Shown here: positions 4,089-37,551 of the stretch, piece after piece
Layout: every line of letters starts with the position of its first letter
Position numbering within the stretch: position 1 is the stretch's first letter
Virus record (IMG/VR): IMGVR_UViG_3300045988_122921
Strand: one strand, 5' to 3'
Source: a virus
DNA: 38,017 nt
The notes under the pieces: model-generated
Told to the model about the DNA's origin: nothing
What the model saw: the letters and a program-made list of their open reading frames with translations, nothing else
The model's database searches: none
Program-made: the position numbers and the translations under genes

Positions 4089-4304
4089 ATGAGTGAATTA
4101 AAACCATACTATGCAGAAATGTCTAAAGAAGAGTTAATCAAAATAATTGAGCATCAACATCAGGAACTTCTAATTATTGATGCGATAAAAAATGAATACA
4201 AAAAGCATTTAGAGCAAGTGATTGTTTATCATTCAGTAGAAAATTATCGTGATACAGTCCGAAAAAATAGAGAAGTAGCTGTAACTACTCCTCAAAAAAA
4301 CTAA
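4089..4304 (+). CDS. Hypothetical protein, 71 aa (MSELKPYYAEMSKEELIKIIEHQ...)
   Basis: ATG 4089 follows GAAAGGAA. It shares the 28-nt leader AATTATACCAGAAAGGAA.TAAAC.AAATG with the Rha gene at 4573. Confidence 0.6.
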   Translation: MSELKPYYAEMSKEELIKIIEHQHQELLIIDAIKNEYKKHLEQVIVYHSVENYRDTVRKNREVAVTTPQKN

Positions 4305-15534: not shown

Positions 15535-15585
15535 GTGAGAAATATTTTCGACATAGTTATTATACCACAAAAGGAGCGATTCCAC

Positions 15586-16002
15586 TTGATTCAATTGCTA
15601 AAAGAAGTAGATTTTCGACAAACAAAAGCGAATGCCAGAAATGTGTTGAAGAATTTTAGACGTTTAGAGCGAATAGCTGGTCGCTCTTTGATAGATTTAA
15701 AATCACCAATTATTACAGATATGCCTAAAAGCCAAAGTCATGGGAACAAAGCAGAAGATGCGCTAGTACAATTAGCAGATGCAGAAGCAGAAAGAGACGC
15801 AATTTTATCTGGGCTTATGGCATTAAGCCTAACTAGCAGACAAATTTTGCACTATAGTTTCTGTGTGCAGGACCATTACTCTAATTACAAGATTGCTAGA
15901 GAAGTCGGCTATTCCGAAAGAAGTATTCAAAGAATGAAATCAGAAGCTTTGATTGAATTCGCAGAAGCTTACCGCAATGGAAAAATAATTGCCTATAAAT
16001 AA
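15586..16002 (+). CDS. arpU: ArpU-family late-gene transcriptional regulator (RinA/LtrC superfamily, sigma region-4-like C-terminus)
   Basis: LTSRQILHYSF...YKIAREVGYSERSIQRMKSEALIEFAEAY. Start taken at TTG 15586, 9 nt after AAGGAG. It sits immediately upstream of the packaging region, as in related Gram-positive phages. Confidence 0.8.
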   Translation: MIQLLKEVDFRQTKANARNVLKNFRRLERIAGRSLIDLKSPIITDMPKSQSHGNKAEDALVQLADAEAERDAILSGLMALSLTSRQILHYSFCVQDHYSNYKIAREVGYSERSIQRMKSEALIEFAEAYRNGKIIAYK

Positions 16003-16006
16003 AATT

Positions 16007-16062
16007 TTGGCGGTTTTTTGGCGGAAAGTTGGCGGTTTTTATACGAATTTGAGTGCTAATAT
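16007..16062 (+). promoter_or_regulatory. Three TTGGCGG repeats at exact 11-bp phasing, plus an extended -10 TGCTAATAT
   Basis: TTGGCGG at 16007, 16018 and 16029. TGCTAATAT at 16054-16062. Starts 5 nt after the arpU stop. Confidence 0.5.
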
Positions 16063-16067
16063 AGTAA

Positions 16068-16216
16068 CATCGAAAGTCAAAGAAATGGACACATTACACA
16101 ACACTTTCTGGTTTAGTCACCGTTTGATTTGACTTTCGATGGTCACTTGCAGACATACGTTCTCAATAAAATGAAGTGAGGTGAATAACCTCCTCTTTTT
16201 TCTACAAGTTTGCAAG
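16068..16216 (+). ncRNA. Structured promoter-proximal RNA element, unit 1
   Basis: A perfect 14-bp helix (16068-16081 with 16128-16141) encloses the GTTTAGTCAC motif. GAGG-7nt-CCTC hairpin plus T6 at 16178-16201. A 9-bp outer helix (16145-16153 with 16208-16216). Paralogous to unit 2. Confidence 0.5.
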
Positions 16217-16275
16217 GGATATATTTGGCGATTGCTAGCATATGCAAAAAAAGACAGACAGAAAGGAAGATTTAT

Positions 16276-16539
16276 ATGTTATTGCAAATTGATAAGTTTA
16301 ATAAAAAAGAATTAGAAGGTAAAGAAGCAGCGAAACTTTTAGTGGACTATATCGGAGGGGTTTCAGGGACTTCTTGTGATAGTGACGCAGTTAAAGTTTT
16401 TAACAATAGTAACCCGATTGTCATTACATTTGGCAAGGAGCAAACAACTGCAATTAACCTGCCATATTACGAAGATTTTAAAATTGTTGCAGTATGGCTC
16501 TTAAATGATGAAGGTAAAACACTTCGTAAATTAATATAA
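16276..16539 (+). CDS. Hypothetical protein, 87 aa (MLLQIDKFNKKELEGKEAAKLLVDYIGG...)
   Basis: ATG 16276 follows GAAAGGAAG. Protein-like composition. It is the only credible CDS inside the RNA island. Confidence 0.55.
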   Translation: MLLQIDKFNKKELEGKEAAKLLVDYIGGVSGTSCDSDAVKVFNNSNPIVITFGKEQTTAINLPYYEDFKIVAVWLLNDEGKTLRKLI

Positions 16540-16598
16540 AATAAGCAGTGTTCAATTTGCTTCGGCACTGGAATTGGTTGCTTTTAAGTAGCCATTTG

Positions 16599-16668
16599 CT
16601 ACACTTTTTATACCTTTTTTATACACTTTATCTACACTTCATATACCTTCTAAACGGGTTATTATGAT
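16599..16668 (+). promoter_or_regulatory. Five phased (C/A)TAC(A)CTT repeats plus a -10-like TATGAT
   Basis: ACACTT or ACCTT cores begin at 16601, 16613, 16623, 16634 and 16645 (spacing 10-12 bp). TATGAT at 16663-16668 aligns with the unit-1 -10 region. Confidence 0.4.
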
Positions 16669-16674
16669 AGTGTC

Positions 16675-16887
16675 AAAAAAATAAGAAATGCGACACACTT
16701 ACACAAATACATTAACGGAACGATTGCCTACTTATTTTTTTGATTTGAGATTACAAGGAAGTAAAAAAATCTACTTTCTTCGTTTAGTCACTTGTGATCT
16801 CATTTAGATTCTCTCGCAAACCACCAATTATAAAACTAAAGAAGTGAGGTGAATTTCCTCTCTCTTTTTTCTACAGGTTTGCGAGAG
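16675..16887 (+). ncRNA. Structured promoter-proximal RNA element, unit 2
   Basis: Shares AAGAAATG(C)GACACA(Y)TTACACAA, CTTTCT..GTTTAGTCAC, and GAAGTGAGGTGAAT..CCTC..TTTTTTCTACA.GTTTGC with unit 1. Extra nested helices at 16746-16754 with 16794-16802, and 16755-16763 with 16772-16780. A 12-bp outer helix (16811-16822 with 16876-16887). Confidence 0.5.
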
Positions 16888-16896
16888 TTAAGTTTA

Positions 16897-17026
16897 GTCA
16901 CTGTGGCGGAATAGGTAGACGCTCGTACGTGAGATTAGACATTGGAACAACGTATAAGTTCGTATGTAGGGCTTTGGCCCATCGGATAAATCTAATCATG
17001 CAAGGTGCAAATCCTTGCCAGTGACA
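16897..17026 (+). ncRNA. 130-nt tRNA-like RNA: Leu-type D-arm and perfect acceptor and T stems, with the anticodon arm replaced by a ~78-nt structured insert
   Basis: Acceptor GTCACTG/CAGTGAC (7 bp). TG, then GCGG-AATAGGTAG-ACGC as in class II tRNA-Leu. T arm GCAAGG-TGCAAAT-CCTTGC, where G occupies the normally U55 position. Central 7-bp helix GATTAGA/TCTAATC encloses hairpins. No canonical anticodon loop. Confidence 0.5.
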
Positions 17027-17146
17027 TAATCATTTTAGCCGTGAAAGTCTGCGAAAGCTACGTCCTGATGGGAAAACATTCTGACGAGAGTGTGTAAAGG
17101 TTAATTTGATTTATTAGCAATTGCTAGAAGGTAGCTCCTTCTGGTA

Positions 17147-17220
17147 TGGCGTGTAGCTCAATTGGTGAGAGCGGTTGATTTTTAATCAAGTACATGCAGG
17201 TTCGACTCCTGTCCCGCCAA
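17147..17220 (+). tRNA. tRNA-Lys (anticodon UUU), divergent phage copy
   Basis: Cloverleaf TGGCGTG-TA-GCTC-AATTGGTGA-GAGC-G-GTTGA-TTTTTAA-TCAAG-TACAT-GCAGG-TTCGACT-CCTGT-CCCGCCA-A. It has a 6:67 U/C mismatch, a 27:43 G/G mismatch, U32, and no encoded CCA. Confidence 0.75.
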
Positions 17221-17280
17221 TAAGTGGCAAAACCACTTAAATAAATTAGGAAACGTCAATAGATGTTTCTTTCCTTCACG

Positions 17281-17311
17281 AGAGGCATCCGCTTGCGGGA
17301 TGTCTCTTTTT
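17281..17311 (+). terminator. Rho-independent terminator closing the tRNA unit
   Basis: 10-bp stem AGAGGCATCC/GGATGTCTCT (one G-U) followed by TTTTT. Confidence 0.7.
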
Positions 17312-17317
17312 ACATAC

Positions 17318-17417
17318 AAAAAAACCACCAGTGAAATTAATCATGGGTGGTTAGGTAGCTAGTACGATATGAGGAATTTCATGTGCAAGAAATTTTCTAA
17401 GGTATGTTGCTACCCGT
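17318..17417 (-). ncRNA. Candidate ~100-nt sRNA A (minus strand)
   Basis: Extended -10 TGCTATAAT (rc 17424-17432). Body closed by GGUAGC/GCUACC. Then UAACC, a hairpin (17323-17352) and U7. Confidence 0.5.
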
Positions 17418-17465
17418 GAATAAATTATAGCAAATCATTCATTAATTGTCTTGTCAGAAGCACAT

Positions 17466-17575
17466 AAAAAACCGCTAGTGGTGACATACTAGCGGTTAGG
17501 TAGCAAATTATGTGTCTTTTCATTGAATTATGAATTACATAAGGTGTTGATTAAAAATAAAAGGAGTTGCTACCT
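17466..17575 (-). ncRNA. Candidate ~110-nt sRNA B (minus strand), paralogue of A
   Basis: Extended -10 TGTTATAAT (rc 17582-17590). A 9-11-bp closing helix (17496-17506 with 17567-17577). A 9-bp terminator stem ACCGCTAGT/ACTAGCGGT (17471-17496) plus a U-run. Contains a CUCCUUUU tract. Confidence 0.5.
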
Positions 17576-17655
17576 AATAAAATTATAACAAATAAGAATG
17601 AAGAATAAAAGAGATTGCCTTGATGGCTTCTTTTTTTGTTTGGAGGGAATGAAGG

Positions 17656-17880
17656 ATGGATAATTATTGGTACATATCTCTGAACCACCATTATCCGAAA
17701 CCCATGAAAAACCAACATAAACGGGTAGTAATGTCGGTGCAGATTAAGAAAGACTATTCCATCATTGAGATGACACGAGAAGCTACACCACAAGAAATTG
17801 ACTATTGCAAGTTGCTATATTGCGGTCATGGGTGTTGGAATGACAAGCATGTACAAGAGAATATAAGTAAATACAGATGA
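17656..17880 (+). CDS. Hypothetical protein, 74 aa, Cys-rich C-terminus
   Basis: Track ORF with a GGAGGG RBS. First ORF of the late operon. Confidence 0.55.
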   Translation: MDNYWYISLNHHYPKPMKNQHKRVVMSVQIKKDYSIIEMTREATPQEIDYCKLLYCGHGCWNDKHVQENISKYR

Positions 17881-17920
17881 ATTACAAAACGAACACAGAT
17901 GGCGAGGTGGTGTAAAATGT

Positions 17921-18685
17921 ATGTCTAGAGCTAGAAATCCAAATAGAGAAAAGGCAAAACATCTTTGGTTAGAATCTGAAGGAACAAAGAAATTAAAAGA
18001 TATCGCAATTGAATTAGGTGTTACAGATTCCACTATTAGAAAATGGAAATCTCAAGATAAGTGGGACACTACAATGAAACGGAGCGCTCCGATTGAAACG
18101 GAACGTTACGATACGCTTAAAGGCAATAAAAATGCCCAAGGGAATAAAGGCGGTTCGCCCCCTAAGGGGAATAAGAACGCAGTTAAACACGGAATTTTTG
18201 CTAAGTGGATGCCGGAAGAGACAATAGAAATAATGGAGACCGTTTCCCAATCAGAACCGGCAGATATTCTTTGGAATAACATTATGATTCAATATACAGC
18301 CATTATCCGATCACAACAGATTATGTACGTCAATGATGTCGGAGATATCTCAAAAGAGGAGTCGGGTTGGTCATCTGGCGAAAGTGGAAGCAGTTCTACT
18401 ATGCAAGTTCAATACGCGTGGGATAAACAAGCTAACTTTTTAGCCGCCCAATCTCGAGCAATGGGAACACTATCAAATTTAATTAAACAATTTGTAGCTA
18501 TCGCAGACGAAGCCGATGAACGAAGAGCAAAATTAAGCTTGATAACTGCGAAGATGGAAAAAACACAAGCAGAAGCGAAAATACTTACGAATCAGGCCGA
18601 TAAGTTAACTGCTGGAGGCAAAGCGAACGAATTGTTAGAAGCTTTGCTCAACGTTAAATCACGAGGTGTGAACAATGACAATTAA
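17921..18685 (+). CDS. terS: Terminase small subunit
   Basis: N-terminal HTH (KLKDIAIELGVTDSTIRKWKSQDKW), located directly upstream of terL and overlapping it. Confidence 0.85.
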   Translation: MSRARNPNREKAKHLWLESEGTKKLKDIAIELGVTDSTIRKWKSQDKWDTTMKRSAPIETERYDTLKGNKNAQGNKGGSPPKGNKNAVKHGIFAKWMPEETIEIMETVSQSEPADILWNNIMIQYTAIIRSQQIMYVNDVGDISKEESGWSSGESGSSSTMQVQYAWDKQANFLAAQSRAMGTLSNLIKQFVAIADEADERRAKLSLITAKMEKTQAEAKILTNQADKLTAGGKANELLEALLNVKSRGVNNDN

Positions 18686-22687: not shown

Positions 22688-22876
22688 ATGCTAATAAAAT
22701 TTATCGCCATTGTGATTGGATTGCCAGTCATTGGTTTATCACTAGCAATCACTATCGCTTTTATTAGATATGGGTTTCGCGTGAATATGGAGACAAAGGA
22801 AGATCCTTACGATCGATTAGATGCCGATTACGAAGAATATTTAAAAAGAGAAGAAAACAGGTCTAACTATCGTTAG
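22688..22876 (+). CDS. Small membrane protein, 62 aa
   Basis: An N-terminal TM segment followed by an acidic tail. A terminator hairpin overlaps the stop. Confidence 0.55.
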   Translation: MLIKFIAIVIGLPVIGLSLAITIAFIRYGFRVNMETKEDPYDRLDADYEEYLKREENRSNYR

Positions 22877-22883
22877 GCTTTTT
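22861..22883 (+). terminator. Terminator-like hairpin GTCTAAC-TATC-GTTAGGC plus T5
   Basis: 7-bp stem with one G-U, followed by a T-run. Confidence 0.45.
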
Positions 22884-32031: not shown

Positions 32032-34295
32032 GCACGATTATTTTACATGATAAGAAAAATAACAATTGGAACTCCCTAGGCATAGGTCCTTTACAAGATG
32101 CAATAAATCCTCTTTCTACAAGGGAACGTAATGGTATTTATGATATGACATTCCAGTATCCAGTGGTAGGGAATTTGTTTCATGAGCTGAAAGTAGGAAG
32201 ATGGATAGTCGCTGACGCTGGACCGACATTGGTCGCTAAAAGTCAACGGTTTGAAATTGCACAAATTACAAAACCAATCAAAGGGATTGTCACTGTTTAC
32301 TGTGAGCATTATCGCTATAAATTGTTGCGCACAATGGTAAAAATCGGTTCCAAATATTCTAATATTTCGGCACAAACAGCATTGAATCAATTAAGAAGTC
32401 AGATGGAGCCTAAAAGTGATTTTACTTTTTACAGTGATGTGGGGACTACATCTTCAATTGATTTTACAGACCCCGCAAAATATAAAAATGCGCAAGAAGT
32501 TTTAGGCGGTGTCGCTGGTTCAATTTTAGATAATTTCGGTGGGGAATATCTTTTTAATAATAATCAAGTTCGCTTGTTAGCAAAAGCCGGTACCGATACG
32601 AATGTAGTCATTGCCTACGGTAAAAATTTAACAGATATTAATCAAGAGGAATCCATTGAAAATACGTATACTTCAATATATGGCTGGGCTAAAATCGGTA
32701 ATGGCGATGATGAAAAAGTAATCACTCTACCAGAAATATATATTGATAGTGACTATGTCAGTAATTATACGGAACGTAGAATACAAATGGTTGATTTTAG
32801 TGATAAAGAGCCAAAAGATGTTGAAGCTTTACGCGGCATGGTTAAATCGTTTATTAAGTCTAATAATGTGGGGATTCCTCGTGTGAGTATAAAAGCTAGT
32901 TATGTAGACTTAGCGAGTTCCGTCTCAGATGAACAACTTAAAAGCCTTGAGGTTGTAGATTTATGTGATTGGGTAACGGTTGCGTTTAATCAATTAAACA
33001 TTAATACAACGGCACAAATTGTAAAAACTGTGTGGAATATTTCTTTAGATCAATATGAGTCAATCGAATTAGGTGAAGCGAGAACTGATTTTGCTAAAGT
33101 AATTGAAGACTCAAAAGAAAATATTAATGATTTGTCAGACAAAATAGATTGGCTTGAACAAGCGCAAAAAGAAGCATCTGATATTATCAAAAATCCAGGA
33201 AAAGGTCATGTGCTCATATATCCGTCGCTTGCAGATCCTCAAGAACTATTAATTATGGATACGACAAGAATAAATACTGCTAGAAAAGTCTGGCGATGGA
33301 ATGTTGGAGGGCTGGGATTTAGCTCAACTGGATATAACGGTAACTATGAGTTAGCAATGACAAATAATGGGCTAATTGTTGCAGACAGGATGGCTACAGG
33401 AACATTGAGAGCTATTAACATTATAGGTGTGACAATTACAGGTAGTGACATTACAAGTGAAAGTGGCTATAACAAAATTATAATGTCAAAGGGAGCTATC
33501 AAGAACTACAATAATAATGTTTTAAAATCAACAATGGATGCTAACAAATTTTCAATATATGATTCTAGAGAAATTGAATTGATGCAACTAAACTCTGATG
33601 GTGTGCGATTTAACAAAGAAGGCACTTTAAATAAGTTAGGAGGTCTGGGTAGAGCATTTTCTACTTCTTTAGGCAAAGAAGAAATCCATATTTATTCTGA
33701 ACCAGGAGTGTTAGCAAGTGTCGGAGCAAAAAAAGTCTCAGGGAACGATGTTGAGAGACACTTTACAGTTTTTGACGCAGGGGTTCAAATATCAAATTTA
33801 AACATGGGTGGAAGTTATGTTGGAGGGTCTGGAGAAATAAAAAATTCAACATTGGTAAATACTAGTGTTAGTACAAAATTTACAGTGAATAACAATGTTA
33901 ACTTAGGATTTTACTCTAATTTAAACATGAATGGTTTTTCAATTCTAAATCAATCAGATGTTCGGCTAAAGGAGAATATAACAGATACGAAGATTGATGG
34001 TATCAAAGAAACCAAAAAGTTAAACTTTGTGGAATTTGATAGAAAGCAAAACTATAAAAGTAATAATCCAATAGAACAGCCTTCTAATAAAAGAGAACTT
34101 GGGCTAATTGCTCAATATTCACCATTTTTAAGTGTTAAACATAATGAAGACCACTATTTAAGTTTAGATATGAATAAACAAGTGATGCTTAACAGTTTAA
34201 CTAATAAACAGCTTATTGAAAAAATTGAACAATTAGAAAAAAAAATAAACAAGCCTAACAAGAATAGAAGAAAATATCATAGAGGAGGGATTTGA
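32028..34295 (+). CDS. Tail-associated protein (Tal, prophage-tail endopeptidase-type N-domain) with a C-terminal intramolecular-chaperone (S74-like) domain
   Basis: Position after Dit. ATGA-coupled start after GGAGGA. SDVRLKENI...ELGLIAQ motif from 33954 onward. Confidence 0.8.
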   Translation: MSTIILHDKKNNNWNSLGIGPLQDAINPLSTRERNGIYDMTFQYPVVGNLFHELKVGRWIVADAGPTLVAKSQRFEIAQITKPIKGIVTVYCEHYRYKLLRTMVKIGSKYSNISAQTALNQLRSQMEPKSDFTFYSDVGTTSSIDFTDPAKYKNAQEVLGGVAGSILDNFGGEYLFNNNQVRLLAKAGTDTNVVIAYGKNLTDINQEESIENTYTSIYGWAKIGNGDDEKVITLPEIYIDSDYVSNYTERRIQMVDFSDKEPKDVEALRGMVKSFIKSNNVGIPRVSIKASYVDLASSVSDEQLKSLEVVDLCDWVTVAFNQLNINTTAQIVKTVWNISLDQYESIELGEARTDFAKVIEDSKENINDLSDKIDWLEQAQKEASDIIKNPGKGHVLIYPSLADPQELLIMDTTRINTARKVWRWNVGGLGFSSTGYNGNYELAMTNNGLIVADRMATGTLRAINIIGVTITGSDITSESGYNKIIMSKGAIKNYNNNVLKSTMDANKFSIYDSREIELMQLNSDGVRFNKEGTLNKLGGLGRAFSTSLGKEEIHIYSEPGVLASVGAKKVSGNDVERHFTVFDAGVQISNLNMGGSYVGGSGEIKNSTLVNTSVSTKFTVNNNVNLGFYSNLNMNGFSILNQSDVRLKENITDTKIDGIKETKKLNFVEFDRKQNYKSNNPIEQPSNKRELGLIAQYSPFLSVKHNEDHYLSLDMNKQVMLNSLTNKQLIEKIEQLEKKINKPNKNRRKYHRGGI

Positions 34296-35767
34296 TGGCG
34301 AATAAGATATTAAATCTCGATTTTTCAAAGGATCCAATCATGCCACCGATTATTTATGGACGCGTCGGCGATGAAAAAATGCAAACAATTACTGTGAAAA
34401 TTTCTCGACGAGATGAGATACCAGATTTATCGGGTGGAATCATTACCTTTGAGGGAGAACCTGCAGGCGGAAAAGTGAAAGTTTTTGATTCTGAAAACGT
34501 CTCTTCTAATAACGCTGAATTGCAAAAAGGAACATTTGAATACACGTTTCCTAGTGCAGCGTTTAGCGTAGAAGGGACGTACAAAAGGGCATATTTTTCG
34601 TTTCAAAAAGATGGGAAAAGAGATACTACGGGAGACTTTAAAATCATTGTTAAAGGAAATGCTGACATTGATGCCGGAGAAGCTGAAACAATTATTACTG
34701 AATACAATAAACTTGTAAAAGCTTTGAATGAAGCATATCAAGCTGCACTAAATAAAATGAATACTGATTATGATGATGTTGAAAAACGTATTGAAGCGAT
34801 CAAGGTAGATTTAAATACGCTAAAAAAACAAATAACAGATATATTGGTGGATGCAGAAGGTCGCATTTCAGCCATTGGGAAGTCAGTAACAGATGAAGTT
34901 GATGCAGCACTTGAAAAGTTTAAAGAGGGAAACTTCTATACGAAACAGGAAGCTGATAATAGATTTTTAAGTAAAACGGAAAACCTTGACATTCAAAATA
35001 AAAAGTTAACTAATGATGATGGTTCAGGTCTACCTTTGCCAAAGGGAGTAACTTCATTTAAAGAATTATCAGGTTATGCTGGTTTTTATTATCTAGATGC
35101 TACAGTTGCGGGAACAATGACTGACAAAGCAGATTTGCCACCTGAATTTAAATATTCTGCTCTATATGTTTATCAACATGCCATTGCGGGCACTGCAGGA
35201 TCTATGTATCAAGAAATTAGAATGAATTCGTTAGCAACACCTTTAATTGCATTTAGAACGACTTCTCCTAATTCTTCTCAAAATAGTCCGTTCAAAGTTT
35301 TGGCTACTACAGATAGTGTTGTTAATTTATCGAATAATCAAGAAATCGCAGGTGTAAAGAATTTTTCAGACGGACTACAAATATCAGGTAAGAATTTAAC
35401 CGATTCTTTAATGGAAATGTTATTAAACGTAGGGAAAAAAATCTGGGAAGGCGCAGCCTATCTAAATGAGACTCAGTCTGTGAAACCAAGTATACCTTTA
35501 GACAAATGTTTTACAGGTTGGGTCGCATTGTACCAACCCTATGATAGTAATACGGGAAAAGCGCAGCCATGGGATTTGAATTATATGTTTATTCCCAAAA
35601 CTCATGCGGTGGATTATTCGGGTGTGGCTATTGTTCATCATTTGGAGACTTTAAATGGTGCGAAATTCAATAAGTATATTTATGTAACAAATACAGAAAT
35701 TAAAGGACATAAGAATAATGGAACTGCAGCGAAAGATTATGTGATTACAAAACTTTATTCTGTGTAA
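34292..35767 (+). CDS. BppU-family baseplate upper / receptor-binding protein
   Basis: N-terminus LNLDFSKDPIMPPIIYGRVGDEKMQTITVKI matches the BppU_N pattern, followed by a coiled-coil and a C-terminal head domain. Confidence 0.75.
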   Translation: MMANKILNLDFSKDPIMPPIIYGRVGDEKMQTITVKISRRDEIPDLSGGIITFEGEPAGGKVKVFDSENVSSNNAELQKGTFEYTFPSAAFSVEGTYKRAYFSFQKDGKRDTTGDFKIIVKGNADIDAGEAETIITEYNKLVKALNEAYQAALNKMNTDYDDVEKRIEAIKVDLNTLKKQITDILVDAEGRISAIGKSVTDEVDAALEKFKEGNFYTKQEADNRFLSKTENLDIQNKKLTNDDGSGLPLPKGVTSFKELSGYAGFYYLDATVAGTMTDKADLPPEFKYSALYVYQHAIAGTAGSMYQEIRMNSLATPLIAFRTTSPNSSQNSPFKVLATTDSVVNLSNNQEIAGVKNFSDGLQISGKNLTDSLMEMLLNVGKKIWEGAAYLNETQSVKPSIPLDKCFTGWVALYQPYDSNTGKAQPWDLNYMFIPKTHAVDYSGVAIVHHLETLNGAKFNKYIYVTNTEIKGHKNNGTAAKDYVITKLYSV

Positions 35768-35783
35768 TAAGAATATGAATAAG

Positions 35784-35810
35784 CCGTTTAGCGAAAGCTA
35801 GGCGGTTTTT
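35784..35810 (+). terminator. Terminator-like hairpin with a GAAA tetraloop, plus T5
   Basis: CCGTTTAGC-GAAA-GCTAGGCGG (9 bp, two G-U pairs) followed by TTTTT. Confidence 0.6.
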
Positions 35811-35830
35811 ATTATTGGAAGGTGGAACTT

Positions 35831-36229
35831 ATGACGATGTTTGATTACTTTAGACATTTTTTAGAAACAGAAGACACGAAAATTTTATTCATTTTAGCAT
35901 TAATTTGCACGGCGATGGTCATTGACTTTTTTACAGGAACCTTTGCGGCAAAAATCAACCCAGATATTGAATTTAAATCAAAAATAGGCATTAACGGCAT
36001 TTTACGAAAACTAACGAGTATTTTCCTACTCGTATTTTTTATTCCATTGTCGGTTATTGTGCCCGGGGGTGCAGGAGTTGCTTTATTATACACGCTTTAC
36101 CTTGGTTACTTATTAATGGAAATAAAATCCATCATGGAAAACTACCAAAAGATAGGCGGAAAAACGGATTTATTTCAGCGGTTTATTGACAGTTTTAAAC
36201 CATCAGATAGAGAGGACGATGACAAATGA
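35831..36229 (+). CDS. Holin (Phage_holin_4 / TcdE-like family)
   Basis: Three TM segments, the DFFTG...KSKIGINGILRK pattern, and a position before the lysin. Met codons at 35831 and 35837. The track start is GTG 35822. Confidence 0.85.
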   Translation: MTMFDYFRHFLETEDTKILFILALICTAMVIDFFTGTFAAKINPDIEFKSKIGINGILRKLTSIFLLVFFIPLSVIVPGGAGVALLYTLYLGYLLMEIKSIMENYQKIGGKTDLFQRFIDSFKPSDREDDDK

Positions 36230-37434: not shown

Positions 37435-37508
37435 GGACCATTAGCTCAGTTGGTTAGAGCCAATCGCTCATAACGGTTAGGCCACAGGTTCGAGTCCTGT
37501 ATGGTCCA
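37435..37508 (+). tRNA. tRNA with CAU anticodon (elongator Met, or Ile2 if lysidine-modified)
   Basis: GGACCAT-TA-GCTC-AGTTGGTTA-GAGC-C-AATCG-CTCATAA-CGGTT-AGGCC-ACAGG-TTCGAGT-CCTGT-ATGGTCC-A is a canonical cloverleaf. It is not initiator-like (1:72 is paired, and there is no GGG/CCC anticodon stem). Confidence 0.9.
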
Positions 37509-37514
37509 TAACGA

Positions 37515-37551
37515 AAGCCTCGCTCCTAGATAAGAGTGAGGCTTATTTTTT
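37515..37551. terminator. Bidirectional terminator between the tRNA and the convergent small ORF
   Basis: 11-bp stem AAGCCTCGCTC/GAGTGAGGCTT followed by ATTTTTT on the plus strand. A-rich 5' flank. Confidence 0.65.

What the first reader, a model, noticed from the sequence alone, without database searches (positions are those of the whole stretch)
16178..17311. Stacked terminator-like signals between the late regulator and the late operon suggest a lambda Q / put-like processive antitermination circuit
A transcript starting at either candidate promoter (about 16069 or 16675) must pass hairpin-plus-U-tract signals at 16178-16201, 16846-16870 and 17281-17311 before reaching terS. I could not find a convincing sigma-A promoter directly upstream of 17656.

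The layout copies lambda: a regulator gene, then a promoter with regulator-site repeats, then a short terminated RNA, then the late genes (Q, PR', 6S RNA/tR'). It also recalls HK022 putL and putR, two paralogous promoter-proximal RNAs. ArpU/RinA-family proteins are normally described as late activators, so an antitermination component would be new.

Caveat: the GAGG/CCTC stems are only 4 bp, so their strength as terminators is uncertain.
Basis: inference. Interest (0 to 1): 0.7.

Follow-up and report, generated by a model that had tools for sequence, protein, structure and literature searches.

The report
Structured leader of phage late operon
The interval is the long, mostly non-coding, highly structured start of an Enterococcus phage's late-gene transcript. 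RNA polymerase starting at the ArpU-controlled promoter must cross two conserved RNA domains, a tRNA and one strong terminator before the packaging genes, so an antitermination step is plausible but unproven.

Summary
All three hairpin-plus-U signals exist at the stated coordinates, but they are not equivalent.

- **16178-16201 and 16846-16870** are weak 4-5 bp GAGG/CCUC hairpins (-8.6 and -7.7 kcal/mol). Each is the invariant core of a conserved RNA domain closed by a long-range helix (P2) that covaries across Enterococcus phages.
- **17281-17311** is a genuine strong terminator (-17.3 kcal/mol) after tRNA-Lys.

The window is a phiFL2A-like Enterococcus faecalis phage. Its three TTGGCGG boxes (16007-16035) match the experimentally proven ArpU binding sites of phiFL2A and occur only once in the window.

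The second copy is not a put-like paralogue. It is an orphan late-promoter cassette with different boxes, preceded by the last 14 codons of another ArpU-family gene.

The published phiFL2A "late transcription start" lies 2 nt past a tRNA, so it is most likely a processing end. That RNA spans the strong terminator, so the terminator is read through in vivo.

A terminator between the boxes/promoter and terS recurs in Enterococcus, Streptococcus and Listeria phages. In Listeria the equivalent leader is the known sRNA rliG.

Antitermination coupled to the late promoter is the best reading (about 0.45). Passive leakage is the main rival. An autonomous put-like RNA is disfavoured by published controls.

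The parts
15586..16002 (+). arpU (late regulator, ArpU/Ltr family). A longer GTG-start ORF begins at 15535.
   Evidence: TIGR01637 phage_arpU, 132 bits against a cut-off of 43. Weak sigma-70 ECF region-4-like similarity, E 0.005. phrog_248 transcriptional activator. The region is 95% identical to phiFL2A.
16007..16035 (+). Three TTGGCGG boxes spaced 11 nt apart: the ArpU binding site.
   Evidence: Repeats found. Unique in the window, with 0.02 matches expected by chance. The equivalent 7-nt repeats of phiFL2A bind ArpU in EMSA and are required for terS::blaZ expression (PMC3753634).
16054..16065 (+). Core late promoter P_A: extended -10 TGcTAATAT, with an alternative TATAGT. The predicted start is about 16068-16072.
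   Evidence: Sequence and promoter scan. The same -10 plus TCGAAAG start region follows the boxes in all related leaders.
16068..16141 (+). Leader A helix P1: a 5'-terminal 14-bp perfect stem (16068-81 with 16128-41). Its loop carries AUUACACAA and GUUUAGUCAC.
   Evidence: Inverted repeat I9, 100% complementary. Present in the minimum-free-energy fold, z -4.9 for the whole leader. Copy B has a different but equally perfect stem (I12), which is a compensatory difference.
16146..16216 (+). Leader A P2 domain: a long-range helix (16146-54 with 16208-16) enclosing an A-rich stretch, the GAGG hairpin and the U tract.
   Evidence: Folds. In alignment A4 the helices are 91% paired against 41-57% in slid registers, and 4 P2 pairs have changes on both sides.
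16178..16201 (+). Signal (a): GAGGT/ACCTC hairpin plus CUCUUUUUU. The 5' strand is Shine-Dalgarno-like and the 3' strand is anti-Shine-Dalgarno-like.
   Evidence: Energy -8.6 kcal/mol, z -2.5. The stem is invariant, showing only A-U to G-U changes. It is not coding, because copies A and B are in different frames (and the sequence).
16276..16539 (+). ORF87, inserted cargo gene of unknown function.
   Evidence: phrog_9473, E 3e-43. Present in only 3 of the related loci. Homologues occur in 37-85 kb Enterococcus phages such as phiSHEF4.
16547..16591 (+). Remnant of another ArpU-family gene: its last 14 codons plus the stop codon (SVQFASALELVAFK*).
   Evidence: 78% DNA match to the 3' end of EH-TP1 gp38 plus its downstream boxes. 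gp38 scores 44.7 bits on TIGR01637.
16595..16649 (+). At least four 11-nt repeats of the TATACAC/CTACAC type: boxes for a different, absent ArpU-family activator.
   Evidence: Repeat family D1. The same boxes follow gp38 in EH-TP1.
16660..16665 (+). Orphan promoter P_B: -10 TATTAT. The predicted start is about 16672.
   Evidence: Promoter scan. GTTATTATGATAGTGTC is almost identical to the -10 and start region of other box-dependent leaders.
16672..16803 (+). Leader B P1 (16672-85 with 16731-44) and an extra 12-bp hairpin (16746-57 with 16791-802).
   Evidence: Inverted repeat I12. Fold with z -5.7.
16811..16887 (+). Leader B P2 domain: a 12-bp perfect helix (16811-22 with 16876-87) enclosing signal (b).
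   Evidence: Inverted repeat I18, 100% complementary. Fold. Covariation with copy A and 13 other variants.
16846..16870 (+). Signal (b): GAGG/CCTC hairpin plus UCUCUCUUUUUU.
   Evidence: Energy -7.7 kcal/mol, z -0.8. It is meaningful only through its conservation.
16897..17026 (+). tRNA-like element: a 7-bp acceptor stem GUCACUG/CAGUGAC, a class-II-like D arm, a T arm and a 77-nt variable insert.
   Evidence: Fold. The T stem covaries and the acceptor stem is nearly invariant (one substitution on one side in each of three relatives) across 9 relatives. 98-99% identical to a stretch of about 150-kb lytic Enterococcus phages; in phiSHEF16, the one examined, it lies inside the tRNA cluster. Not called by ARAGORN or Rfam.
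17147..17220 (+). tRNA-Lys (UUU).
   Evidence: ARAGORN. Rfam tRNA, 58 bits.
17281..17311 (+). Signal (c): strong intrinsic terminator after the tRNA cargo.
   Evidence: Energy -17.3 kcal/mol, z -3.85. The equivalent hairpin in phiFL2A lies between the mapped RNA 5' end and terS, so it is read through in vivo. A compact terminator lies up to about 170 nt (mostly 30-80 nt) upstream of the first late ORF in 11 or more loci.
17312..17600 (-). Two paralogous units of about 147 nt. Each has a minus-strand terminator (17319-17350; 17470-17497), and minus-strand promoter-like sites lie in the region. Transcription would converge on the late leader.
   Evidence: -12.5 and -14.7 kcal/mol. No match in the phage collection. 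Present in 4 related loci.
17656..18685 (+). First late genes: ORF74 (17656-17880) and terS (17921-18685).
   Evidence: phrog_1202 and phrog_509. Pfam Phage_terminase, PF10668.

Best explanation
The interval 16007-17655 is the promoter plus a roughly 1.6-kb, mostly untranslated, mosaic leader of the phage's single ArpU-dependent late operon.

**Shown or well supported**
1. ArpU binds the three TTGGCGG boxes directly after its own gene. Transcription starts about 16070, next to an extended -10.
2. The nascent RNA folds into a 5'-terminal hairpin (P1) and a P2 domain. The invariant core of P2 is the GAGG/CCUC hairpin plus U tract, which is signal (a).
3. The transcript then crosses, in order:
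   - a cargo ORF;
   - an orphan second promoter-leader cassette, which contains signal (b);
   - a tRNA-like element;
   - tRNA-Lys;
   - the strong terminator, signal (c).
4. RNase P/Z-type processing at the tRNA(-like) units probably cuts the leader away from the late mRNA.

**Inferred**
A strong terminator sits between the only ArpU-dependent promoter and the late genes. Upstream transcripts do not get through it, yet ArpU-dependent ones do. The most likely mechanism is therefore antitermination coupled to the promoter. Polymerase that starts at the box-controlled promoter would become terminator-resistant. The modifying agent would be ArpU (lambda-Q logic), the 5' leader RNA, or both acting co-transcriptionally.
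For: **Identity of the promoter**
- The region is 95% identical to phiFL2A over the aligned parts. In phiFL2A the three 7-nt repeats bind ArpU and are essential for terS expression.
- The boxes occur only once in the window.
- There is no + strand promoter between 17312 and 17655.

**Read-through happens in vivo**
- The phiFL2A 5'-RACE end is a G 118 bp upstream of terS. That corresponds to L001:4180, 2 nt after tRNA-Arg 4104-4178.
- It lies upstream of the terminator at about 4238-4264.

**The terminator works on other transcripts**
- No Pcad read-through was seen when arpU is mutated. The same was found for RinA.

**Conserved architecture**
- The order boxes/promoter, then structured leader, then compact terminator, then first late gene holds in 11 or more Enterococcus loci.
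- It also holds in S. thermophilus TP-J34 and Listeria A118.

**The leader is a real RNA structure**
- Fold z-scores are -4.9 and -5.7.
- P2 shows compensatory changes.
- About nine unrelated P2 stem sequences occur across 24 leaders.
- The enclosing helix exceeds shuffles in most cases.

**Other points**
- The Listeria equivalent, rliG, is expressed in lysogeny while late genes are off. This resembles the lambda 6S RNA.
- The late operon contains further intergenic terminator-like hairpins at 22859-22880 and 35781-35808.
- tRNA processing would sever the leader from the mRNA, so any cis role must be co-transcriptional (inference).
Against: - No experiment separates activation of initiation from antitermination.
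- A very strong late promoter combined with leaky terminators would give the same reporter results.
- Signals (a) and (b) are weak, and (b) is no better than shuffles.
- ArpU shows only sigma region-4-like similarity and no relation to Q proteins.
- Chimeras carrying RinA or LtrC boxes on the phiFL2A intergenic region also work. Read-through is therefore not specific to ArpU.
- For staphylococcal phage 80alpha, a 5' end resistant to monophosphate-specific exonuclease maps downstream of the terminator. If real, that points to a promoter there.
- Deleting rliG in Listeria does not impair virion production.
Confidence: 0.45

Rival explanations
1. Passive read-through. ArpU is only an initiation activator of a very strong promoter. 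Hairpins (a) and (b) and terminator (c) are leaky attenuators or insulators. They keep late genes silent in lysogens, terminate the tRNA and small-RNA cargo, and let a fixed fraction of transcripts through. There is no dedicated antitermination.
For: - (a) and (b) are weak, 4-5 bp.
- The reporter data do not quantify promoter strengths.
- ArpU is a sigma-4-like DNA binder bound just upstream of the -35 position, like a class II activator.
- Deletion of rliG is tolerated in Listeria.
Against: - (c) and its analogues are strong, compact terminators placed just before the first late gene in many unrelated leader types.
- They block upstream transcripts to undetectable levels.
- Losing most late transcripts at each of several terminators across a 21-kb operon would be costly.
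Confidence: 0.35
2. Autonomous RNA antiterminator, like HK022 put, EAR or conAn2. The P1-P2 leader RNA alone binds the elongating polymerase and makes it terminator-resistant, without ArpU.
For: - The leader is conserved, covarying and promoter-proximal.
- It must act co-transcriptionally because tRNA processing detaches it.
- Chimeras that keep the phiFL2A leader still work with foreign activators.
- Leaders commonly carry two such domains in tandem.
Against: - Transcripts from the upstream Pcad promoter also contain the leader, yet gave no read-through.
- There is no sequence or structure match to any Rfam family.
- Some relatives have P1 only (L098) or no leader (L003).
- rliG is dispensable in Listeria.
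Confidence: 0.12
3. Nus-factor (ribosomal-operon-like) antitermination. Pyrimidine-rich boxA-like tracts following hairpins recruit NusB/NusE and partners. This would protect a long untranslated, tRNA-containing transcript from Rho and from pausing.
For: - Related leaders carry UUCUUCUUUGAC(A)A. This resembles the low-GC Gram-positive boxA GUUCUUUGAAAAC, a sequence I recall from memory; the literature search confirmed only that the string occurs in mycoplasma-detection papers.
- A hairpin with a conserved loop (YUACUCACAA) precedes it.
- The leader contains tRNAs, as ribosomal operons do.
Against: - The window's own copies have only CUCUUUUUUCUACA, a poor boxA match.
- Pyrimidine tracts carry little information.
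- No E. faecalis ribosomal leader was available for comparison.
- Nus complexes act mainly on Rho-dependent termination, whereas (c) is an intrinsic terminator.
Confidence: 0.06
4. The leaders are free-standing small RNAs like Listeria rliG. They would end at (a) or (b) and act in trans. Their position upstream of the late genes would be incidental, or would only reflect a hot spot for non-coding cargo.
For: - rliG occupies the same position in Listeria A118 and is expressed in lysogeny in the related prophage phi10403S.
- The arpU-terS gap elsewhere holds GOLLD, and rli28 plus RatA.
- Tandem and orphan cassettes suggest modular cargo.
Against: - P2's 3' arm lies downstream of the U tract and still covaries. 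The read-through form is therefore under selection.
- The leader always sits between the only late promoter and the late genes.
Confidence: 0.15

Closest known systems
Ltr (ArpU/RinA/LtrC) late-activator system of Gram-positive temperate phages (Quiles-Puchalt 2013, PMC3753634; Ferrer 2011, PMC3152322)
   Same: - An ArpU-family gene is followed at once by three 7-nt direct repeats, upstream of terS.
- Over the aligned parts it is 95% identical to the phiFL2A locus used in those experiments.
   Different: - The published model places the late promoter near terS (-118 in phiFL2A). Here that end coincides with a tRNA 3' end.
- The real promoter appears to abut the boxes, about 1.6 kb upstream of the late genes in this window.
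- The structured leader and the need to cross terminators are not part of the published model.
Lambda Q - PR' - 6S RNA - tR' late antitermination
   Same: - The order is regulator gene, regulator site at the promoter, short structured RNA ending in a terminator-like signal, then a long late operon.
- In the related Listeria system the short RNA is made in lysogeny while late genes are off.
   Different: - ArpU is unrelated to the Q families and looks sigma region-4-like.
- The boxes lie upstream of the -35 position, not between -35 and -10.
- No -10-like pause element is evident in the initially transcribed region.
- The leader is far longer and carries tRNAs.
HK022 putL/putR RNA antiterminators
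   Same: There are two paralogous, promoter-proximal, multi-hairpin RNAs with covarying stems.
   Different: - The copies lie in tandem on one transcript, and the second is an orphan cassette.
- They are larger, 150-215 nt.
- Published controls argue against protein-independent action.
Listeria sRNA rliG (Rfam RF02415) and rli62
   Same: - It lies immediately downstream of an ArpU-family gene and its 11-nt-spaced boxes.
- It starts with a long 5' hairpin presenting an AUUACA-type loop and ends in a terminator before the late genes.
   Different: There is no Rfam match in the window, even at E up to 10. The sequences are unrelated apart from these short motifs. The function of rliG is unknown.
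conAn (pLS20) and EAR RNA-based processive antitermination in Firmicutes
   Same: A leader RNA of a long operon in a mobile element of Gram-positive bacteria precedes multiple terminators.
   Different: - There is no ConAn1-like gene.
- There is no sequence similarity.
- conAn2 works from a heterologous promoter, whereas this leader apparently does not.
GOLLD/ROOL-type large phage RNAs next to tRNAs
   Same: The genomic niche is the same. GOLLD is annotated between the ArpU-like gene and terS of a pneumococcal phage. This leader also carries tRNA and tRNA-like units.
   Different: No GOLLD or ROOL match was found here.

Membership tests
Ltr/ArpU-controlled late promoter | ArpU-family regulator gene | tested here: met
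   TIGR01637, 132 bits against a cut-off of 43; phrog_248.
Ltr/ArpU-controlled late promoter | Direct 7-nt repeats immediately distal to the regulator gene, upstream of terS | tested here: met
   TTGGCGG x3 at 16007-16035, 11-nt spacing. The same repeats occur in phiFL2A, where binding was shown.
Ltr/ArpU-controlled late promoter | ArpU binding and ArpU-dependent terS transcription | not testable with these tools
   Shown experimentally only for the 95%-identical phiFL2A locus.
Lambda Q-type antitermination | Regulator homologous to a Q family | tested here: not met
   No Pfam family. No PDB sequence relative. Only ArpU and weak sigma-4 similarity.
Lambda Q-type antitermination | Terminator between promoter and late genes that is passed only when the regulator is present | tested here: inconclusive
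   The terminator is present. It is read through in vivo in phiFL2A. Upstream transcripts are blocked without ArpU. Promoter strength is not controlled for.
Lambda Q-type antitermination | Promoter-proximal sigma-dependent pause element (-10-like sequence in the early transcribed region) | tested here: inconclusive
   No clear TAnnnT element by eye in 16068-16095. The start region TCGAAAG(A/T) is conserved, for an unknown reason.
Lambda Q-type antitermination | Constitutive promoter that makes a short terminated RNA without the regulator | not testable with these tools
   Only an indirect parallel exists: Listeria rliG is expressed in lysogeny.
HK022 put RNA | Protein-independent action in cis from any promoter | tested here: not met
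   No computation here could test this; the judgement rests on a published control. Pcad transcripts that contain the leader did not read through. It is a qualitative control only.
HK022 put RNA | Two copies, each serving a separate operon | tested here: not met
   The copies are in tandem. Copy B is an orphan cassette with foreign boxes and a gene remnant.
Intrinsic terminator | Stable GC-rich hairpin immediately followed by a U tract | tested here: met
   This applies to (c): -17.3 kcal/mol with an 11-bp stem. A 9-bp version of the stem is followed by UUUUU.
Intrinsic terminator | The same criterion applied to (a) and (b) | tested here: inconclusive
   The stems are 5 bp and 4 bp, at -8.6 and -7.7 kcal/mol, and (b) equals shuffles. 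The U6 tract is conserved in E. faecalis phages but not in distant leaders.
Listeria rliG (RF02415) | Match to the Rfam covariance model | tested here: not met
   No hit in window 15900-17700 at E up to 10. A118 scores 274 bits.
Nus/boxA antitermination leader | boxA consensus following a hairpin | tested here: inconclusive
   boxA-like UUCUUCUUUGAC occurs in relatives. The match in the window is poor. The consensus was recalled from memory.

The most novel reading that the evidence does not exclude
What has been called 'activation' by the whole ArpU/RinA/LtrC superfamily may be, wholly or partly, promoter-coupled antitermination. A largely constitutive promoter next to the boxes would make a short structured leader RNA (rliG in Listeria, the P1-P2 RNA here). 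The regulator, alone or together with that RNA, would convert the polymerase into a terminator-resistant form that reads 20 kb of late genes. This would also explain the long-standing puzzle that RinA and ArpU bind 155-650 bp upstream of the mapped terS 5' ends.
Probability: 0.22. Interest if true: 0.85.

Novelty: new variant of a known kind. Interest (0 to 1): 0.6.

Why it matters
ArpU/RinA-family regulators switch on packaging and lysis in most temperate phages of staphylococci, enterococci, streptococci, listeriae and lactobacilli. Through this they drive transduction and the mobilisation of pathogenicity islands.

The published model cannot explain two things: why these proteins bind far upstream of the mapped late RNA ends, and why a terminator sits in between. 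This locus offers a concrete, testable explanation:
- the promoter lies at the boxes;
- the mapped end is a tRNA-processing site;
- late expression requires crossing a conserved structured leader and a strong terminator.

The analysis also defines a conserved leader-RNA family that is absent from Rfam, and links it to the orphan Listeria sRNA rliG.

Tried and rejected
- **Rfam.** Gathering thresholds on the whole window, and E up to 10 on 15900-17700, gave only tRNAs plus chance hits to MIR172, YrlA, rliE and FMN. About 30 related loci gave tRNAs, a group II intron, rli28 and RatA, but nothing on the leader.
- **Coding potential of the conserved GTGAGGTGAAT motif.** Rejected. The ORFs from the GTG are 44 aa and 21 aa, in different frames in A and B, with no start codon at Shine-Dalgarno distance.
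- **ArpU against Pfam and PDB sequences.** Nothing was found.
- **One MAFFT alignment of all 23 P2 domains.** The stems were out of register and unusable for pair counts. I replaced it with an alignment of the closely related E. faecalis domains and per-sequence folds.
- **First terminator-census script.** It timed out. The second is permissive and noisy, so only compact hairpins were used from it.
- **Long-range partner (UGUGAGU) for the ACUCACA loop motif.** None was found consistently.
- **A terminator between arpU and the boxes.** Only a 4-6 bp interrupted pairing exists, which I judged ineffective (inspection).
- **Literature searches.** Searches on ArpU alone, on RinA plus antitermination, and on boxA gave nothing that settles the mechanism.
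- **T-box, conAn2 and GOLLD/ROOL membership.** Considered and rejected for lack of any match.
Full report
**What the window is.** The region around the finding belongs to a phiFL2A-like temperate phage of Enterococcus faecalis. The stretch 15500-17700 matches phiFL2A at 95% identity over arpU and the sequence just downstream. The gene at 15586-16002 is an ArpU-family regulator: TIGR01637 scores 132 bits against a cut-off of 43, and there is weak similarity to sigma-70 region 4. Downstream lie ORF74 (17656-17880), terS (17921-18685), terL and the portal gene.

**Checking the observation.** All three signals are present.

| Signal | Coordinates | Stem | Energy (kcal/mol) | z against shuffles |
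|---|---|---|---|---|
| (a) | 16178-16201 | GAGGT/ACCTC, then CTCTTTTTT | -8.6 | -2.5 |
| (b) | 16846-16870 | GAGG/CCTC, then TCTCTCTTTTTT | -7.7 | -0.8 |
| (c) | 17281-17311 | 11 bp | -17.3 | -3.85 |

By energy alone, (b) is indistinguishable from shuffled sequence. The simple scan lists only (a). It finds no + strand promoter-like site between 17312 and 17655, only minus-strand ones.

**The promoter.** Directly after the arpU stop codon lie three TTGGCGG boxes spaced 11 nt apart (16007-16035). An extended -10, TGcTAATAT (16054-16062), follows. This box set occurs only once in the 38-kb window, against 0.02 expected by chance. In phiFL2A the three 7-nt repeats at this position have been tested experimentally:
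- They bind purified ArpU.
- They are essential for terS::blaZ expression.
- ArpU is the only phage protein needed.
- Box blocks from RinA or LtrC phages can replace them (PMC3753634).

[quoted passage not shown] In the phiFL2A sequence this is position L001:4180. It lies 2 nt after tRNA-Arg (4104-4178). The bases immediately upstream are the tRNA's T arm and acceptor stem, with no -10 element. The mapped end is therefore most likely a tRNA 3'-processing product.

It also lies upstream of the strong terminator at about L001:4238-4264. An RNA detected with a terS primer must then have read through that terminator.

The authors further report no read-through from an upstream Pcad promoter when arpU is mutated. 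From this they infer a terminator in the intergenic region. The same was reported for RinA. There the boxes lie more than 155 bp from the mapped end, and the authors call the mechanism 'more complex'.

**What signals (a) and (b) really are.** Each sits inside a larger RNA structure.

- *Copy A:* a perfect 14-bp helix P1 (16068-81 with 16128-41) starts at the predicted 5' end. A helix P2 (16146-54 with 16208-16) encloses an A-rich stretch, the GAGG hairpin and the U tract. The fold has z = -4.9.
- *Copy B:* P1 is 16672-85 with 16731-44. There is an extra 12-bp hairpin. P2 is a perfect 12-bp helix, 16811-22 with 16876-87. The fold has z = -5.7.

The stems differ in sequence between A and B, while the loops and the core are conserved. 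In 15 distinct E. faecalis phage variants of the P2 domain:
- The two modelled helices together are 91% paired, against 41-57% in slid registers.
- Four P2 pairs carry compensatory changes on both sides.
- No shuffle reaches the observed covariation score.
- The inner GAGG/CCUC stem is invariant, apart from A-U to G-U changes.

Across 24 leaders from many Enterococcus species, P2 is closed by about nine unrelated stem sequences. The enclosing helix usually exceeds shuffled flanks. In these distant relatives the U run after the inner hairpin is lost, but a U run often follows the 3' arm of P2 instead.

The conserved purine strand resembles a strong Shine-Dalgarno sequence, and the pyrimidine strand resembles its complement. 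No conserved ORF follows. Nothing in Rfam matches this leader.

**Why there are two copies.** Copy B is not a second functional paralogue of the putL/putR kind.
- Bases 16547-16591 encode the last 14 residues and the stop codon of a different ArpU-family gene. It resembles gp38 of E. hirae phage EH-TP1.
- That gene's own TATACAC-type boxes follow at 16595-16649, then a -10 at 16660-65 and a leader.
- No cognate activator gene is present in the window.

Copy B is thus an orphan late-promoter cassette, recombined in together with the cargo gene ORF87. Tandem domains are nevertheless common. Phages with a different first leader ('type 2') carry a second, copy-A-like P2 domain downstream.

**The rest of the interval.** The stretch 16897-17026 is a tRNA-like element.
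- It has a 7-bp acceptor stem that is nearly invariant, a class-II-like D arm, a T arm whose stem covaries, and a variable insert.
- It is 98-99% identical to a stretch of about 150-kb lytic Enterococcus phages. In phiSHEF16, the one I examined, it lies inside the tRNA cluster.

tRNA-Lys follows at 17147-17220, then terminator (c). RNase P/Z processing at these units would detach the leader from the late mRNA. Any cis function of the leader would then have to be exerted during transcription. This step is inference.

**Comparative architecture.**
- A compact, strong terminator lies up to about 170 nt (mostly 30-80 nt) upstream of the first late ORF in 11 or more Enterococcus loci.
- In S. thermophilus TP-J34 the -10 and start region are followed at once by an annotated terminator and then terS.
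- In Listeria A118 the known sRNA rliG (274 bits) and rli62 lie immediately downstream of the ArpU-family gp66. The layout there is two 11-nt-spaced boxes, an extended -10, a 5' hairpin with an AUUACA-type loop, then a terminator.
- rliG is expressed in lysogeny while late genes are silent. Its deletion does not impair virion production (PMC7397523).
- A pneumococcal phage has GOLLD annotated in the same gap.
- The window's late operon also contains intergenic terminator-like hairpins at 22859-22880 and 35781-35808.

**Mechanism.**

*Established.* This is the ArpU-dependent late promoter and its structured leader. The late genes depend on transcription that crosses (a), (b) and (c).

*Not established.* Whether crossing is actively promoted.

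I favour promoter-coupled antitermination at about 0.45, for three reasons:
1. The terminators are strong and conserved in position.
2. They block upstream transcripts.
3. They are nevertheless passed by ArpU-dependent transcripts.

Within that reading, an activator-dependent (lambda-Q-like) mechanism fits the published Pcad control better than an autonomous put-like RNA. The Pcad transcripts also contain the leader, yet did not read through.

The main rival is passive leakage from a very strong promoter, at about 0.35. None of the published experiments excludes it. A Nus/boxA-type mechanism and a purely trans-acting sRNA role are minor alternatives.

**Novelty.** No searchable paper connects ArpU or RinA with antitermination. 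The leader family is absent from Rfam. The logic (regulator, promoter, short structured RNA, terminator, late operon) is that of lambda Q, built from unrelated parts. I therefore rate it a new variant of a known kind. Interest is moderate to high because it makes a long-standing puzzle in Gram-positive phage late regulation directly testable.

Noticed in passing
window 16897-17026: A tRNA-like RNA with a nearly invariant acceptor stem GUCACUG/CAGUGAC, a tRNA-Leu-like D arm, a covarying T arm and a variable 0-77-nt insert. It is 98-99% identical to a stretch of about 150-kb lytic Enterococcus phages; in phiSHEF16, the one examined, it lies in the tRNA cluster. ARAGORN and Rfam do not call it. 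It may be a processing signal or a non-canonical tRNA.
   Followed up: partly
window 17312-17600: Two paralogous units of about 147 nt. Each has a minus-strand intrinsic terminator (17319-17350; 17470-17497), and minus-strand promoter-like sites lie in the region. They are candidate antisense small RNAs converging on the late leader. There is no match in the phage collection, but they are present in 4 related IMG/VR loci.
   Followed up: partly
L001 (phiFL2A) 4104-4180: The published phiFL2A late 'transcription start' (a G at -118 from terS) lies 2 nt after tRNA-Arg and has no -10 element. It is probably an RNase-processed end, not a start.
   Followed up: yes
window 16547-16649: A 14-codon remnant of a second ArpU-family gene with its own TATACAC-type boxes. 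This is an orphan late promoter that might respond to the activator of a co-resident prophage.
   Followed up: partly
L084 against L086/L087, ArpU genes: These ArpU proteins have near-identical N-terminal halves but different C-terminal 45 residues, and are followed by different boxes (TTGGCGG against TGTAGGG). This fits the published conclusion that the C-terminus sets box specificity. Other box types seen were ATGTGG, TAGGG, TGGCAC and TATACAC.
   Followed up: partly
L118 2705-3098; L101 3476-3789; L088 4506-4798: The gap between the late activator and terS is a hot spot for non-coding cargo. It holds an annotated GOLLD RNA in a pneumococcal phage, rli28 plus a RatA antitoxin RNA in an E. 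gallinarum prophage, and a group II intron in another.
   Followed up: no
L092, L093, L095, L096, L101, L103, L085, L094, L107 leaders; window 16090-16105 and 16695-16710: A hairpin with a conserved loop, YUACUCACAA (AUUACACAA in the window, AUUACAAAA in Listeria rliG), closed by stems that covary between phages. It looks like a specific recognition loop. No partner was found.
   Followed up: partly
window 22859-22880 and 35781-35808: Intergenic terminator-like hairpins inside the late operon. One lies before the scaffold-region genes. The other, with a 12-bp stem, lies between the ORFs 34292-35767 and 35822-36229, near the end of the late operon.
   Followed up: no
window 17027-17146: A spacer of about 120 nt between the tRNA-like element and tRNA-Lys. 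It is conserved in 20 related loci and predicted to be structured. Its function is unknown.
   Followed up: no
window 37435-37544: tRNA-Met (CAT) followed by a strong terminator, just past the end of the late operon. It may be phage cargo or the host attachment region.
   Followed up: no
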